A DNA stretch of 64,000 bases, taken from positions 50,964,001 to 51,028,000 of the forward strand of contig OZ024751.1 in NCBI GenBank assembly GCA_964016885.1, in the 5' to 3' direction. The position numbers and the translations under genes are program-made. Below are positions 542 through 58,479 of the stretch, in pieces; positions within the stretch are counted from its first letter, which is position 1; each line of letters begins with the position of its first letter. A model generated the notes under the pieces. The model was given only the letters and a program-made list of their open reading frames with translations, was not told where the DNA came from and did not search any database. Source of the stretch: Eledone cirrhosa (lineage: Eukaryota).

Positions 542-584
542 GTCACTGAAGAGGTCACAGAATGTGTGACGAAAGAACTTTGAC
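542..584 (+). ncRNA. Minimal type I hammerhead ribozyme in Penelope pseudo-LTR
   Basis: GTCA(542-545)-CTGAAGA(546-552)-G-GTCACA/TGTGAC stem II-GAAA(571-574)-GAACT-T-TGAC(581-584). Stem I is GTCA/TGAC, stem III is 2 bp, predicted cleavage triplet CUU. Confidence 0.7.
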
Positions 585-1339
585 ACTATATGAACAACTA
601 TCCGGTTGTGGAACCAACCAACCAACCGGAAATTTACAAATTTCTTAAATCTTTAAAATTTAATTTATAATAAATTGGAGTGAAAGCAACTGGTGCATGT
701 GTTTCTTATTGGCAACATGACCCTCCCAAAGTATAACAATATATATATAGATAAATATATATATATATATATAGAGAGAGAGAGAGGGCGAGAGTGAGAG
801 AGAGAAACAGACAGAGACAAAGAATGAGATAAATATAGATATAATGGGAGGAAGGGAGCGGGTAATTTATTGATCCCATGATAAACAATATATGATCAAT
901 TGAAAAATATGTTGAAAGCAGATGGCAAAGAGTTTAACACATTTTAATAGAATCATAGTTTATTGTGTAAGTGTGTGTATATATATGTGTGTGTGGATGG
1001 TGGAATTGGTGGTAGTGATAGTGGCCGTGGTGAGGGTGGTGGTGGTGAGTGGAAAGAGGATGGGTGTCAGTGGGGTATGGGTTATGTGAACCATTAATAA
1101 TTGAAGACGAAAGGAAAAAAAAAACATCTATTGTTTTCTTGTTTTCCTCTTTACTCTCAAAGAAAGAAACGTTTGGTGGGGTAGGGTAGGGTGGGTGGTT
1201 TTTGATACTTGAAATGGTGGTGTAGGGATTAGGGTGGTCAACAGGAAATAAGAGGAGAGAGATGAAACCAAAACAAGGGTGAGAGGAGGAAAGAAGAGGG
1301 TATGAAAATATGTGGTAGCAACAAGATGATGGGAGGTGG

Positions 1340-1585
1340 GTTGTGGCAGTGGTGGTGGATGTGGAGGTGGTTGAGGTGGCGGTGGTGGTGGTGGAGGTGA
1401 TGATGGTGGTGGTGGTGGAGTTGGTGGAGTTGGCGGTGGTGGTGGTGGAGGTGATGATGGTGGTGGTGGTGGAGTTGGCGGTGGTGGTGGTGGTGGAGGT
1501 GATGATGGTGGAGGTGGTGGTGGTGGTGGTGGAGGTGGCGGTGGTGGTGGTGGTGGTGGAGGAGGTGGTGGAGGTGGTGGTGGTA
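1340..1585. repeat. (GGT)n-rich microsatellite
   Basis: Visible imperfect trinucleotide repeat; source of the poly-Pro and poly-Val ORFs. Confidence 0.95.
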
Positions 1586-1799
1586 GGTAAAGGTCTAGAG
1601 TTAATAAAGATGATTGTGTGATTCGGAGAAACAAAGTATGCAGGGGTGGAGTTAGGTCAATAGTGTAAGAGTTGACAACATGCATGTGTGTGTGTGTGTG
1701 CATACATGTATGTATGTATATGTGTATGTGAGTGCATACATGTATATATATGTGTGTATGTGATGTGTGTATGTATGTGTGTGTGCAATTTCTTGGGGT

Positions 1800-2300
1800 G
1801 GTGGAATGATTAAATCGACCCTAGTGCATTACTGGTACTTTATTTTATCAACCCTGTAAGGATAAAAGGCAACGCTAACCTCACCAGGATTTGAACTCAG
1901 AACATAAAGAGCCAGAACAAATAGTGCGAAACATTTGTCTAGCATGGAGTTATGCCCTTTACAGTCTGAGTTCAAATCCCGCCGAGGTTAACTTTGCCTT
2001 TCATCCTTACGGGGTCGATAAAATAAAGCACCAGTAATGCACTGGGGGTAATTGCTGGCCTTGTGCCTTAAGTAGAAACATTATTATTATTATTTCTAAG
2101 GGCGGTGAATTGGCATATCGGTAGAGGGTCGGACGCCATGCTTTCCAGCATAGTTACGTCCCTTTACGGTCTGAGTTCAAATCCTGCCGAGGTTGACTTT
2201 GCTTTTCATCCTTACGGGGTCGATAAAATAAAGTACCAGTAATGCACTGGTAATTGCTGGCTTTGTGCCTAAAGTAGAAACAATTATTATTATTATTTCT
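1800..2300. mobile_element. Cluster of tRNA-derived SINE family B copies (one minus, two plus)
   Basis: Repeated body GAGTTCAAATCC (B box)...GGTTAACTTTGCCTTTCATCCTTACGGGGTCGATAAAATAAAGTACCAG...CCTTGTGCC-AAAGTAGAAAC-(ATT)n. Confidence 0.9.
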
Positions 2301-2309
2301 ATTATTATT

Positions 2310-54639: not shown

Positions 54640-54826
54640 CAAAGAAAATGTGGTAAGGAACCAGGTGGACCATAATGCACCAGAGTATTTGATACTTAGG
54701 GTAGTAGAGTGGGTAATAGGAAAAAAGTGAGGACCTGATGGCTGAGCTCCAACCGTTTTGACAGCTAGATCGGATCTAGCTGTCAAAATGGCCGGAGTTC
54801 AGCCACGGGGTCCTGATTCTTTTCCT
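54640..54826. mobile_element. Short interspersed element with terminal palindrome; relatives at ~42910-43045 and ~56625-56780
   Basis: Shared GTGGTAAGGAACCAG-TGGACCATAA...GTAGAGTGGGTAATAGG body; palindrome TTTTGACAGCTAGATC-G-GATCTAGCTGTCAAAA centred on 54772. Confidence 0.75.
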
Positions 54827-55600
54827 TAATATATATATATATATGTATATATACACACACACACACACATATATATATGATGATGATGATGATGATGATG
54901 ATGATATATATATATATATACACAACATCCAGGCCGAAACAAATGAGATCGTGTAGGTGTCACGACAAAAAAAACACAGTCCACGCTGTAATGTGGTCGT
55001 GTAGGCAACATGGTAAAAACCTCCCAGTCCCACACTGTAAATGTGGTTGGTGTTAGGAAGGGCATCCAGCTGTAGAAAACCCGCCAGACAGTCCTATGCG
55101 AGCAAGACAACCACTCTTGCCTCAAGTGGGAAAACTCCCGTCCAAACCCATGCAAGCGTGGAACATGGACGTTAAATGATGATGATGATGATGATGATGA
55201 TGATATATATATACATATATATAATACTAACAAAATTATAGATGTCATGTCTAAGAAAATCATAAATATGCGCCATACCACCTGTAGAAGAAGCTCAAAG
55301 ATTTTAAGGAATAAATTCAAGCATTTATTAAAAATTAAAGGTCGATTGACATATATATATAAAATAAACATATCAAACATTGACAGGTGATAATTTGTAA
55401 AGAGTGTAAGATCACATAGTTACAGAGGTAGCATATTAAAATTTAATGACAACTTCAAATATAGATGCTTTTTAATAATAATGGCTTCTTATATAGTAGT
55501 ATAGTTAATAGAAGCATTGTCATAAGTTTCAAAAAGCCAGTGAATGAGAAGAAATATTTAAAGGGCAAAAGATGACAAATAAAATGAAATAAAATAATGA

Positions 55601-55758
55601 TTTACCCAGTATATTTCAACATGATATTTCAGGGCTAATACCCTCTTTTCAAATGTGGAACGGAAATGGTTCAAACAAAAATGAGCGATCAATGTATTCT
55701 TCCTTCTTGAAAAGTGGGTATTAGCCCTGAAATATCATGTTGAAATATACTGGGTAAA
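55601..55758. repeat. Foldback element (52-bp core arms) with degenerate hammerhead core
   Basis: 55601-55652 versus 55707-55758; minus arm reads TTGAAAA-G-AGGG-TATTAG-CCCT-GAAA. Confidence 0.85.
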
Positions 55759-57215
55759 AGATTACTTTTATTTTATTGGTCAGCATTTACCCTTTATATA
55801 TTTCTACCACATTGTACTGACTTTTTGAAACTTATCAGTCATTTATTACAGAGAGAGAGAGAGAGAGAGAGAGAGAGAGAGAGAGAGAGAGAGAGGGAGG
55901 GAGGGAGAGAGAGAGAGAGAGAGAGAGAGAGAGAGAAAGTAGAATCGATGTCAGCGTTGCAGCATATGTATAAACTTTATTGGCATATTACAATTGTTTC
56001 AATATCGATCTCAGCTCTGCACACTATAGCCACCTTATCTCTGGAATACAAGCCAACACAAGACAAACCTTGTAACGGTATTGAGTGCTTTGAATGGTGT
56101 GCTGCCTGTAACTGTAGTTAGACACCTAACTAACACCTATATATATATATATATTCATCACTATATATATATATAGTGATGAATTTGTTTTGCAAGGTTT
56201 TTGTCAATAATATATATATATATATATATATATATATATATATATACTGTATATAACTATAGATTGCTGAAGTTCACGGTGGAGATGACGAAGGACCGTG
56301 ACAAGTGGAGAGATGCTGTGCTGAATAAGACCCGTCCCACCCTTGCAAGCAGGGAAAAGCGGACGTAAATGATGATGATGATTTATTTTGTTTGACCCGT
56401 TTAGCTTGTTCGCTTTTTGGGCTTAGGTGGTTAATGGCTTCTTAACCATCGTCTCAGTTTTGTATGACCTTTTTAACTTATGTTTATAGCTCTGGTACCT
56501 TTATATCCATTGAGCGCTTGTCAACACAATTCGGAAGTTGTGTTTCGGTAATTCCTAACTGCCGAAATGCGATTCTCGCTAAATTCATATTTGTGTATAT
56601 ATATATATATATATATATATTATAAAGAGTCGAGATCCAACGACCAGTCTGGAACTAGCTGTTGAAATGGCAAGAGCTCAGCCGTTGGTCCCGACTCTTT
56701 TTAATATAGTCACACTCTACTATCCGAAGTATCAAGTACTCTGTTGAATAATGGTCTAACTAGTTTAAAACTGGTTTTATTCTGATATATATATATATAT
56801 ATATATATATATATATATATATATATATATATATATATATATATATATATATATATATATACATATATTTTTATACACCCACGCTCACATAAAAATATTC
56901 ATATTGCTGTTTTCTTCACTATACATTGATTTTTATTTTATACATGCACAAATATTAGAACATAAGTGCATATTTTCATGTATATATATATGCATATGCA
57001 TGCATATATATATATATATGCATGGTCCCATAACTTCTGAAAAGATCCCATTAAAAGCAATGATTCTTTGCTTAAACTTTAATCTGTTCTTATAATAAAT
57101 ATTTGCTCTACGGGTTTTTATATATATATATATATATATATATATATATATATATATATATATATATATATATAGTGGAAGAATGAAGAGTAACATGGTT
57201 GGCTGTACAACAGAA

Positions 57216-57324
57216 TATTCTGAGGATTTGATCAGAGGTAAATAATGTAATGGAGATCGAGTGACACAACTTCGAGCGATTAGCGACCTCTAGACTCACC
57301 TGATCAATGAAACAATTGTTAATA
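57216..57324 (+). ncRNA. Type I hammerhead with 82-nt expanded stem II, enclosed by 39-bp inverted repeats (57174-57212 / 57342-57380)
   Basis: TATT-CTGAGGA(57220-57226)-T-TTGATCAG...CTGATCAA-T-GAA-ACAATTGT-T-AATA. Stem II base is 8 bp, stem III is palindromic, triplet GUU. Confidence 0.7.
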
Positions 57325-58479
57325 CCTGAAATAAAGCCCCTTGTTGTACAGCCAACCATGTTATTCTTCATTCTTTCACTATTATTACTCCAAGTATAAC
57401 CTACATAGGAATTACCACAAACTCGCTGCCTAACTATGGAAGCATCTTGTTGAGTTAAACAAAGCCGTACGTTAAAACTATCCACGACGCAGAGTACTCA
57501 CAACCTCTAACTAGATTACTTATAACGATAACTTGTTATATATACATATATATATATGTATATATATATATGTATATATATATATATATATATATATATA
57601 TATATATGTATATATATATATATATATATATGAGATTATTGAAGTTTGCTTGAAGTGTTGTGGAATAATAATAAAATTGGTCGTTTTGGAGGCCTCAACA
57701 ATGCAGATGGGTAAATCTCCGGGTAACAGAATCTGGTGGTGAAGAGAGAGATGTAAGAGGAAATCTAGAATGAGACGTATAGTAGTGTGTAGAGCAACAT
57801 AGGAAAGAACGTAAAAATAATAACACGAGATAGAGTTACCTTGGAAAAGATTTAATTATCCCTATATTTCGGATTTCCCATCTATCAACTGGGGGTTTTT
57901 CCGAGGAGGAAAGTTTTTAGTCGGAGAGGAATGGTACGTGGCCTCTGTTGTCTGCCGTTTGTATGTATGCCCACACACATATATATGTCACCAATATATT
58001 ATATATATATATATCATCATCATCATCATCATCATCATCGTTTAACGTCCCTGTTCCACGCTTGCATGGGTTTGGACGGAGGTTTTCCCACTTGAGGCAA
58101 GAGTGGTTGTCTTGCTCGCATAGGACTGTCTGGCGGGTTTTCTACAGCTGGATGCCCTTCCTAACACCAACCACATTTACAGTGTGGGAGTGGGAGGTTT
58201 TTACCGTGTTGCCTACACGGTCACATTACAGCGTGGACTGTGTGTATATATATATATATATATATATATATATATATAATATATTGGCGACAGATATATG
58301 TGTGTGTATATATGCATACATACACACATACATGCATACATACATATATACTTGTATATGAATGTGGGCATTACTATAAATCTATTTTCAATCAGATTTG
58401 CTCTAATGCATATAACCATATAACTTACTTTTACCATATCTCTATTGAAATTGTGATGGTATTGATGGTTGTGGTTGTG

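What the first reader, a model, noticed from the sequence alone, without database searches (positions are those of the whole stretch)
542..57380. Dispersed population of non-coding foldback elements carrying hammerhead ribozyme cores
Seen: at least nine short inverted-repeat elements with little mutual sequence similarity (4040-4909, 38794-39077, 40492-40651, 41462-41591, 52805-53743, 54341-54533, 54718-54826, 55601-55758, 57174-57380). Most contain or enclose a complete or partial CTGANGA...GAAA core, and further cores lie at 542, 21909 and 24341. Known: Penelope-like elements carry minimal type I hammerheads in pseudo-LTRs that are often inverted, and animal non-LTR retrozymes are hammerhead-bearing tandem repeats. 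Inference: these are several families of non-autonomous ribozyme-bearing Penelope derivatives at roughly one per 6 kb, able to form both self-cleaving RNA and dsRNA. I cannot tell whether they are already catalogued for this genome.
Basis: partly seen in the sequence, partly recalled or inferred. Interest (0 to 1): 0.8.

Follow-up and report, generated by a model that had tools for sequence, protein, structure and literature searches.

The report
Penelope fold-back ends with hammerhead ribozymes
Short mirror-image DNA hairpins scattered through this animal DNA are likely the cut-short ends of Penelope-type jumping genes, probably copied in from both sides of a DNA break; five of the nine carry a complete predicted self-cutting RNA motif, a known pairing, and one of these has its parts in a scrambled order not found described for animals in the papers searched.

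Summary
All nine foldbacks are real. Five of nine hold a complete hammerhead: four type I and one (52805-53743) in the non-circular SGC order. One holds only CTGATGA; three hold decayed or doubtful halves. Type I matches number 6-8, against 0.03-0.1 in shuffles, and 6 of 8 complete loci lie in foldbacks (P about 1e-5). Cores read outward, one arm runs on as a 38-157 nt tail, and 6 of 9 short ends abut (TA)n. This is the published footprint of Penelope-like insertions: inverted 5'-truncated copy, tail, TA target, opposite-strand hammerhead pairs. The foldback is therefore an insertion footprint, not a family trait. In a read-through RNA the hairpin is predicted to lock the core (about 20 kcal/mol), so cleavage and dsRNA would exclude each other. 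New relative to the papers read: stem II of 30-82 nt, the SGC form (also readable in two published octopus Naiad consensuses) and about one locus per 6-8 kb. Cleavage and expression are untested. The scan noted these same features before on other DNA of this genome.

The parts
1..50 (-). Foldback A, left arm: inverted copy of 487-536, cut off by the window edge
   Evidence: 49/50 identical
55..345 (+). C-terminal part of a GIY-YIG endonuclease of a Penelope-like element, enclosed in foldback A
   Evidence: Stop-free frame. 323 relatives at E<=0.001, best 1e-16. Two of 12 relatives scanned have a weak GIY-YIG hit. Long relatives carry the match at their C-terminus behind RT-like motifs (motifs recognised from recall)
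541..584 (+). Type I hammerhead (C3 546, GAAA 571, predicted cut after 580), one mismatch in palindromic stem III
3968..5086 (.). Foldback B: arms 4039-4469 and 4480-4910 of a 421-nt non-coding unit. Both arms run on into a partial further unit, and the outer ends are about 52 nt apart in the unit, both at (TA)n
   Evidence: 421/431 identical; unit map
4833..4873 (+). Type I hammerhead of B, right arm; mirror copy with C3 at 4111 on the minus strand
   Evidence: strict descriptor
13371..13413 (+).
21904..21940 (+). Decayed type I hammerhead (C3 changed, deletion at the cut site); its downstream part resembles 62950-62992
   Evidence: sequence by eye; z=11
24336..24425 (+). Decayed type I hammerhead, 61-nt stem II, same stem III palindrome as at 57220
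   Evidence: two core mismatches, stem I 5/5; near background on its own
38710..39077 (.). Foldback C: arms 38794-38935 and 38936-39077, no spacer, 84-nt tail on the left; type I hammerhead with 30-nt stem II in both arms (C3 38969+, 38902-)
40448..40651 (.). Foldback D: CTGATGA in both arms (40598+, 40559-), 45-nt tail on the left, no complete ribozyme; possibly a 5'-truncated SGC form
   Evidence: SGC reading untested
41462..41669 (.). Foldback E (arms to 41591) with a complete type I hammerhead on + (C3 41562, 82-nt stem II, GAAA 41651); the left arm stops inside stem II
42912..43036 (-). Solo copy of the family of foldback H, 5'-truncated at the same hairpin
48993..49058 (-).
   Evidence: strict descriptor
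52769..53743 (.). Foldback F: arms 52806-53182 and 53366-53743, spacer native to the + copy, 38-nt tail on the left, in (TA)n; high-copy non-coding family
52815..52925 (-). SGC-order hammerhead-like motif (U16.1 52873, GAAA 52855, CUGAUGA 52829); mirror copy on + (53675, 53693, 53720)
   Evidence: stem I 7/7, stem III 6/6 with G-U; stem II only one pair
54341..54533 (.). Foldback G: no demonstrable core (GAAA plus an AT palindrome, at chance level)
54642..54826 (.). Foldback H (arms 54718-54826) with a 77-79 nt tail; the turn lies in a hairpin before a decayed GAAA; possible 3' half of a hammerhead
   Evidence: half core not above chance
55522..55835 (.). Foldback I: arms longer than reported, symmetric ends, not in (TA)n, no intact core
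   Evidence: weak likeness to the 21909 element, z=6.4
56625..56785 (.).
   Evidence: sequence by eye
57175..57536 (.). Foldback J: 38-nt arms, 157-nt tail on the right, both ends at (TA)n; complete type I hammerhead in the spacer (C3 57220+, 82-nt stem II)

Best explanation
These hairpins are likely single, 5'-truncated insertions of several unrelated Penelope-like retroelement RNAs, some protein-coding and some non-coding, and the mirror-image shape is likely made during insertion. Inferred mechanism: the element's endonuclease nicks both strands of a (TA)n target. [quoted passage not shown] Both cDNAs stop early at different points and are joined head to head, so the extra length of the longer one is the spacer. 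The hammerhead lies just inside the start sites, so even very short copies contain it, reading from the centre outward. The ribozyme is predicted to work in the parent element's RNA, as a dimer through its palindromic stem III, to cut tandem transcripts into units. In an RNA read through a foldback it would be locked in the long hairpin. Shown: foldbacks, cores, orientation, tails, TA ends, one enclosed endonuclease fragment. Inferred: two-ended priming, cleavage, dimer use.
For: Type I descriptor: 6 strict hits against 0.03 in 60 local shuffles, and 8 against 0.1 with one stem III mismatch. SGC hit in both arms of F against 0.01-0.02 in 100 shuffles. 6 of 8 complete loci lie in foldbacks covering 8.8-11.4% of eligible DNA, P=1e-5 to 5e-5. 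Outward CTGANGA in 6 of 9, inward in 0 of 9. The short end lies within 2 nt of (TA)4 in 6 of 9, background 1.1% per end, and the other arm runs on 38-157 nt. The family of H uses the same short end in H and L. Foldback A encloses a GIY-YIG fragment directly upstream of its hammerhead. Stem III is a different perfect palindrome in five sequence forms across six loci, and stem I differs between families yet pairs. Literature: inverted 5'-truncated copy, 30-40 bp tail and (TA)n bias (PMC8557442); dual minimal hammerheads 100-700 bp apart on opposite strands (PMC4209133); both strands nicked and extended, two RT start sites bounding the tail (PMC11167929). Read-through hairpin: opening CUGANGA alone costs 19.8-20.7 kcal/mol in B, C, E and F.
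Against: Three of nine (E, G, I) do not end at (TA)n, I has symmetric ends, and G and I show no demonstrable core. Four tails (77-157 nt) are longer than the published 30-40 bp. Only A has a Penelope coding remnant; 151 related proteins hit nothing else in the window. The three longest-stem-II regions fold no better than shuffles (z -0.66, 0.30, 0.42), and stems I and II form poorly in several monomer folds. Stem pairing was a condition of the descriptor, so it is not independent covariation. In J the core is outside the arms and costs only 4.9 kcal/mol to open. Cleavage was not required for insertion in vitro in the one reconstituted element, and 8 of 9 Xenopus retrozyme dimers tested did not cleave. 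No genome was held, so family consensus sequences and copy numbers could not be built.
Confidence: 0.8

Rival explanations
1. One-ended priming with snap-back: a single cDNA (or second strand) folds on a hairpin or microhomology, often the hammerhead's stem II, and copies itself, which gives the inverted arm.
For: C turns with no spacer. H turns inside a hairpin just before its decayed GAAA, and all three copies of that family end their 5' side at that hairpin. F's inner junction has an A8/T8 self-complement.
Against: In C, D, F and H the left arm carries a tail that the right arm lacks, and in F the spacer is native to the right arm while the tail is on the left. A copy of one strand cannot add sequence that strand lacks. 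The two mechanisms may combine: two primings, joined by snap-back.
Confidence: 0.12
2. One reading: dedicated non-autonomous foldback families whose RNA both self-cleaves and forms dsRNA as part of their life cycle.
For: B and F are non-coding units with head-to-tail junctions: B locally, F in two contigs of one run of organism C. F is high-copy (2045 contigs laid in run X1, 5491 reads in X17).
Against: Copies without a foldback exist (13376, 49051, 42912). Arm lengths run from 20 to 431 nt. The hairpin sequesters the core. A encloses coding sequence.
Confidence: 0.05
3. MITEs or other DNA-transposon derivatives that insert at TA, with the cores as chance matches or captured passengers.
For: TA flanks; short non-coding inverted repeats. 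Foldback I is symmetric, has 131-nt arms and no intact core, and may be one.
Against: Offset outer ends in the six TA-flanked foldbacks and in E, cores far above chance and always outward, no shared terminal motif.
Confidence: 0.02
4. Assembly artefacts from fold-back chimeric reads.
For: C and B are near-perfect palindromes (139/142, 421/431).
Against: Arms differ by 1-19%, mostly transitions, and their ends are offset by tails. The F family and its spacer-arm junction occur in independent contigs and reads.
Confidence: 0.01

Closest known systems
[quoted passage not shown]
   Same: Type I order, short stem I, extra base after A9, palindromic stem III, many sequence families per genome, mostly in truncated copies; pairs 100-700 bp apart on opposite strands already reported.
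   Different: Stem II here is 30-82 nt in five loci (7-8 bp described there). Density here is about one per 6-8 kb in this window, against 2,000-9,000 motifs per genome reported there with another descriptor.
Tandem/inverted insertions of EN+ PLEs, incl. Naiad_Obim, Naiad_Ovul and Hydra-1_Obim (Craig et al. 2021, PMC8557442; passages, supplement searches and supplement parts 2 and 24 read)
   Same: Inverted 5'-truncated copy, tail at one end, (TA)n preference listed for the octopus families; an octopus PLE hammerhead (Hydra-1_oBim) is already tabulated.
   Different: Most insertions here are too short to reach the ORF, and tails run to 157 nt. The paper says Naiads lack canonical hammerheads and marks Naiad_Ovul 'HHR_half_core', whereas its 3' end reads by eye as SGC order.
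Animal non-LTR retrozymes (Cervera and de la Pena 2020, PMC7229834, passages; Li, Clavereau and Pollet 2026, 10.64898/2026.07.22.740005, parts 1-3 of 5)
   Same: Non-coding units with one hammerhead, head-to-tail junctions (B 421 nt, F about 580 nt), proposed to be non-autonomous PLE derivatives.
   Different: Here no two complete units lie in tandem, the cores are minimal or scrambled rather than canonical, and the word 'inverted' does not occur in PMC7229834.
Type-SGC hammerheads, HRIMA-1 and variants (Eckert et al. 2023, PMC10085705; part 1 of 8, section 13 and passages read)
   Same: Block order S-G-C, intact core, stems I and III, short link (3-4 nt) from the stem I strand to the pre-GAAA strand.
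   Different: Stem II between the C and G blocks is one G-C pair; both flanks can pair instead with separate upstream strands. It lies in an animal retroelement, whereas that paper found its motifs almost only in metatranscriptomes.
PAc Poseidon in vitro system (Frangieh et al. 2024, PMC11167929; parts 1-2 of 4 read)
   Same: Both strands cut in AT-rich DNA and extended; two internal RT start sites define the tail.
   Different: That work does not show that two primings make the inverted copy; these foldbacks would be the genomic record of it (inferred).

Membership tests
Penelope-like element insertions (EN+) | GIY-YIG endonuclease on an RT protein | tested here: met
   Foldback A only: EN fragment 55-345 with relatives where it is C-terminal on RT-like proteins. 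None near the other foldbacks. Clade not resolved.
Penelope-like element insertions (EN+) | Inverted 5'-truncated copy adjoining the 5' end | tested here: met
   All foldbacks with a core read centre-outward.
Penelope-like element insertions (EN+) | Tail at one end only | tested here: met
   B 52, C 84, D 45, F 38, H 77-79, J 157 nt; E runs on past its arm; not seen in I, unclear in G. Several are longer than the published 30-40 bp.
Penelope-like element insertions (EN+) | Insertion in microsatellite, (TA)n | tested here: met
   6 of 9 short ends abut (TA)4, background 1.1%; E, G and I do not.
Penelope-like element insertions (EN+) | Match to catalogued Dfam/Repbase pLTR consensus | not testable with these tools
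   No such library is held.
Minimal type I hammerhead | CUGANGA, GAAA, NUH in C-G-S order with stems I and II | tested here: met
   Six loci with an intact core (546, B, C, E, 49051, J) and 13376 with one core mismatch.
Minimal type I hammerhead | Palindromic stem III | tested here: met
   Perfect in B, C, J, 49051, 13376, 24341; one mismatch in 546 and E.
Minimal type I hammerhead | Covariation within a family | not testable with these tools
   One locus per family in the window and no genome held.
Minimal type I hammerhead | Self-cleavage (as dimer) | not testable with these tools
   Needs a bench assay.
Non-LTR retrozyme | Non-coding unit | tested here: met
   B and F: no Penelope protein match; longest stop-free stretch 75 and 120 codons.
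Non-LTR retrozyme | At least two consecutive complete units with hammerheads | tested here: not met
   B has one unit plus a partial one per arm; F one unit or less. Head-to-tail junctions are seen, so the families may qualify elsewhere in the genome.
Non-LTR retrozyme | Expressed circular RNA | not testable with these tools
   No RNA data were available to lay.
Type-SGC hammerhead (foldback F) | Block order S-G-C with intact core | tested here: met
   Both arms; 0.01-0.02 per shuffled window.
Type-SGC hammerhead (foldback F) | Stems I and III | tested here: met
   Left arm 7/7 and 6/6, right arm 6/7 and 6/6. A common variant in run X17 (61 of 62 and 67 of 70 reads at 52850) turns the stem III G-U into A-U.
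Type-SGC hammerhead (foldback F) | Stem II formed between the C-block and G-block flanks | tested here: not met
   One G-C pair, then mismatches; each flank has a 5-bp partner upstream. In X17 most reads have U at 11.1, which leaves a G-U pair.
Type-SGC hammerhead (foldback F) | Covariation and cleavage | tested here: inconclusive
   Naiad_Obim and Naiad_Ovul show the same order with different, fully paired stems I (6 bp) and III (5 bp), read by eye; not seen in the Naiad_Omin end of the same part. Cleavage untested.
MITE | Two equal terminal inverted repeats forming the element's ends, with target duplication | tested here: not met
   Ends are offset in 7 of 9; I and G remain open.

The most novel reading that the evidence does not exclude
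This genome is strewn, at about one locus per 6-8 kb, with many Penelope-borne hammerhead architectures that Rfam misses. Foldback F carries an active, non-circularly permuted (SGC) hammerhead with a split stem II, the ribozyme of Naiad elements and their non-coding parasites. The offset-ended foldbacks are the genomic record of two-ended priming by Penelope enzymes.
Probability: 0.45. Interest if true: 0.75.

Novelty: new variant of a known kind. Interest (0 to 1): 0.48.

Why it matters
The pairing of hammerheads with Penelope ends, and their occurrence as opposite-strand pairs, is in print. Three points would add to it. (1) How Penelope elements make their inverted copies is stated as unsolved (PMC8557442); short foldbacks with two offset ends give a direct prediction for the existing in vitro system. 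(2) An SGC-order hammerhead in an animal retroelement would extend non-circular RNA permutations beyond environmental RNA and fill the 'missing ribozyme' of Naiads. (3) Long-stem-II and scrambled forms escape Rfam, so ribozyme counts in such genomes are probably far too low. The foldbacks would also be ready-made dsRNA substrates in an animal group known for heavy RNA editing (recalled), but that is a by-product.

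Tried and rejected
Rfam by E-value: the 150 of 288 rows shown were microsatellite- and hairpin-driven miRNA/snoRNA noise, with no hammerhead among them; at gathering score only one tRNA-like SINE head. No genome is held, so no genome-wide counts. 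Word-indexed protein search for longer relatives of the EN fragment: none of 127 candidates scored; Pfam gave nothing on the fragment itself. First two translation frames were wrong. Half-core search (GAAA + hairpin + UH): 100 against 92 at 4 bp, 15 against 14 at 6 bp, so the 3'-half readings of G and H are not supported by pattern alone. Minus-strand hit at 15752 with two core mismatches was dropped as chance. Foldbacks made of opposed SINE copies (1823-2248, 1840-2838, 5324-6156, 37093-37436), inverted pairs that are parts of B, and pairs scoring under 50 were left out of the enrichment count. A-to-G editing bias between arms: none, A/G 14 against C/T 25 of 58 differences. No RNA holder listed for the F arm. 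Read piles ending at 53081-53129 are RAD-seq restriction ends, not element ends. Whether the 82-nt stem II at 57220 is a family trait was not obtained from reads and stays open. Lunse et al. 2016 (dimer cleavage of PLE hammerheads) is not held; only its title was seen in a reference list. Searches for prior print: hammerhead+Penelope+pLTR, hammerhead ribozyme+octopus (16), hammerhead+Penelope+dimers+palindrom (57), Penelope+cephalopod+inverted repeat (58), non-circular permut+hammerhead+retrotranspos from 2023 (59), Penelope-like+non-autonomous+palindrom+twin priming (69). None listed a catalogue of these octopus-type foldbacks or an SGC hammerhead in an animal, judged from the listings and the papers read. 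The library lacks most subscription journals, and the supplements of the 2026 preprint and of the other papers apart from PMC8557442 were not seen.

Full report
Setting. The window is AT-rich animal DNA crowded with microsatellites, tRNA-derived SINEs and RTE-type LINE fragments. I take it to be octopus-like from recalled SINE motifs and from earlier notes of the scan; no call names the organism. No genome is held, so everything below rests on 64 kb, one read-laying run and the literature.

The foldbacks are real. Outside SINE pairs they also return 1-50/487-536 and a low-complexity palindrome at 59935-60043; a small one at 56625 was seen by eye. Arms are 81-99% identical over aligned letters, and the differences are mostly transitions. 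Only the 54718 element has relatives in the window.

The cores are real in a majority, not in all. A type I descriptor (stem I, CTGANGA, stem II up to 130 nt, GAAA, palindromic stem III, UH) gives 6 strict hits against 0.03 in 60 local dinucleotide shuffles, and 8 against 0.1 with one stem III mismatch. Counting mirror pairs once, the type I loci are 546, B (4838/4111), C (38969/38902), E (41562), 49051 and J (57220), plus 13376 with one core mismatch. Stem II is 14-18 nt in three of them and 30, 33, 82 and 82 nt in the others (61 nt at decayed 24341). A search over all six block orders finds the SGC order in both arms of F (52829-, 53720+), against 0.01-0.02 per shuffle; I looked for it after earlier notes pointed to such forms. 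D holds only CTGATGA. G, H and I have no demonstrable core, and half-core patterns are at chance level. Six of the eight complete loci lie in foldbacks that cover 8.8-11.4% of eligible DNA (P=1e-5 to 5e-5; 6 of 10 with the two decayed loci, P<=3e-4).

The geometry points to Penelope insertion. CTGANGA reads centre-outward in 6 of 9 foldbacks and inward in none. In B, C, D, F, H and J the shorter arm stops within 2 nt of a (TA)n run (background 1.1% per end). The other arm carries 52, 84, 45, 38, 77-79 and 157 further bases before its own TA run. E, G and I do not follow this. Foldback A encloses the end of a GIY-YIG endonuclease ORF 200 bases before its hammerhead. Craig et al. (PMC8557442, passages) describe an inverted 5'-truncated copy, a 30-40 bp tail at one end and (TA)n bias, and list octopus Naiad and Hydra families with that preference and an octopus PLE hammerhead. 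Cervera and de la Pena (PMC4209133) already report dual minimal hammerheads 100-700 bp apart on opposite strands. Frangieh et al. (PMC11167929) show both strands cut and extended, and two RT start sites bounding the tail.

Mechanism. I infer that both nicks in a (TA)n target prime cDNA from the two start sites, that both cDNAs stop early, and that they are joined head to head. F is the clearest case. Contigs show that the spacer continues natively into the right arm (joint 53181-53365, 4 contigs in X1), while the tail is on the left arm. Each arm thus has sequence the other lacks, which a simple self-copy cannot give. Snap-back at a hairpin may make the join: C has no spacer, and H turns inside a hairpin at which all three copies of its family end. 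Earlier notes of the scan reach the same two-armed model on other loci; they are not independent evidence.

Autonomous or not. A is a truncated coding element. B is a 421-nt unit followed on both arms by a partial repeat. F is a high-copy family (2045 contigs laid in X1, 17 in X5, 49 in X6, 5491 reads in X17). Two contigs of X6 join its tail to its start, which gives a unit of about 580 nt. B and F behave like retrozymes, which a 2026 preprint derives from PLE pLTRs, but neither shows two complete tandem units here. The others are too short to tell.

Self-cleavage and dsRNA. In a read-through transcript of B, C, E or F the whole CUGANGA is paired, and opening it alone costs about 20 kcal/mol; in J, where the core lies in the spacer, it costs 4.9. 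The antisense arm is made first. Cleavage and dsRNA formation would therefore exclude each other on one molecule. The short palindromic stems III form dimer duplexes of -3.2 to -10.5 kcal/mol when perfect, and -1.1 to +1.4 when mismatched, in line with dimer cleavage and low activity in vitro. Many copies look decayed: the longest-stem-II regions fold no better than shuffles. No editing bias is seen between arms.

The SGC motif. Stems I (7 bp) and III (6 bp) are complete in the left arm. Stem II is one G-C pair, and each of its flanks has a separate 5-bp partner upstream, with an 8-9 bp helix taking up the G-to-C linker. It therefore works like a type-SGC hammerhead (PMC10085705) but fails the stem II criterion, and I do not file it as one. 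The 3' ends of Naiad_Obim and Naiad_Ovul read by eye in the same order with different, fully paired stems; the end of Naiad_Omin does not. Two other Naiad ends show the normal order with a long insert, so the form is not universal among Naiads. One search for non-circular hammerheads with retrotransposons listed no such report.

Verdict. The long-stem-II and SGC variants, the density and the testable two-ended priming model raise it to a new variant of a known kind. Interest 0.48.

Noticed in passing
window 58500-59910: Long low-complexity stretch that would read as Pro/Thr-rich on the minus strand (mucin-like exon, by eye), next to a 109-nt palindrome at 59935-60043 with no hammerhead core.
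   Followed up: no
window 24600-27820, 7127-7895, 37314-38091, 11043-11631: Near full-length, frameshifted RTE-type LINE (identified from recalled motifs) and fragments; its 3' end is shared with a very frequent short repeat ending in (ATG)n.
   Followed up: no
window 1819-2282, 2611-2891, 46144-46354 and others: Frequent SINE family (up to 16 matches in the window) with an internally near-palindromic core; opposed pairs form foldbacks unrelated to the hammerhead elements.
   Followed up: partly
window 15843-15914, 9652-9821, 38359-38450: tRNA-like SINE head; one copy passes the Rfam tRNA gathering score.
   Followed up: no
window 57632-57970 (-): Possible further decayed hammerhead (TTGATAGA ... 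TCC GAAA TATAG near 57880) between TA runs, right next to foldback J.
   Followed up: partly
window 49200-49950 (+): Decayed fragment that looks like the restriction-like endonuclease end of a non-LTR element (recalled motif), beside the 49051 hammerhead element.
   Followed up: no
window 41400-41610: Foldback E sits at the end of an RTE fragment, and the first bases of its long stem II resemble (from recall) the continuation of that RTE frame; the left arm may have jumped between two GCATTG copies.
   Followed up: no
window 8362-8962, 34077-34327, 5134-5496, 47330-47501: Minisatellites of 32, 41, 143 and 48 nt period; the last two derive from the LINE-tail repeat.
   Followed up: no
window 22662-22775: Small inverted repeat with ends TACAGGGTGTCC, score 41, resembling (from recall) a Tc1/mariner-type MITE.
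   Followed up: no
PMC8557442 supplement, parts 14-15: Two Naiad 3' ends have CTGATGAG ... GAAA in normal order with a long insert that pairs back to sequence upstream of the core: another possible pseudoknotted hammerhead form.
   Followed up: no
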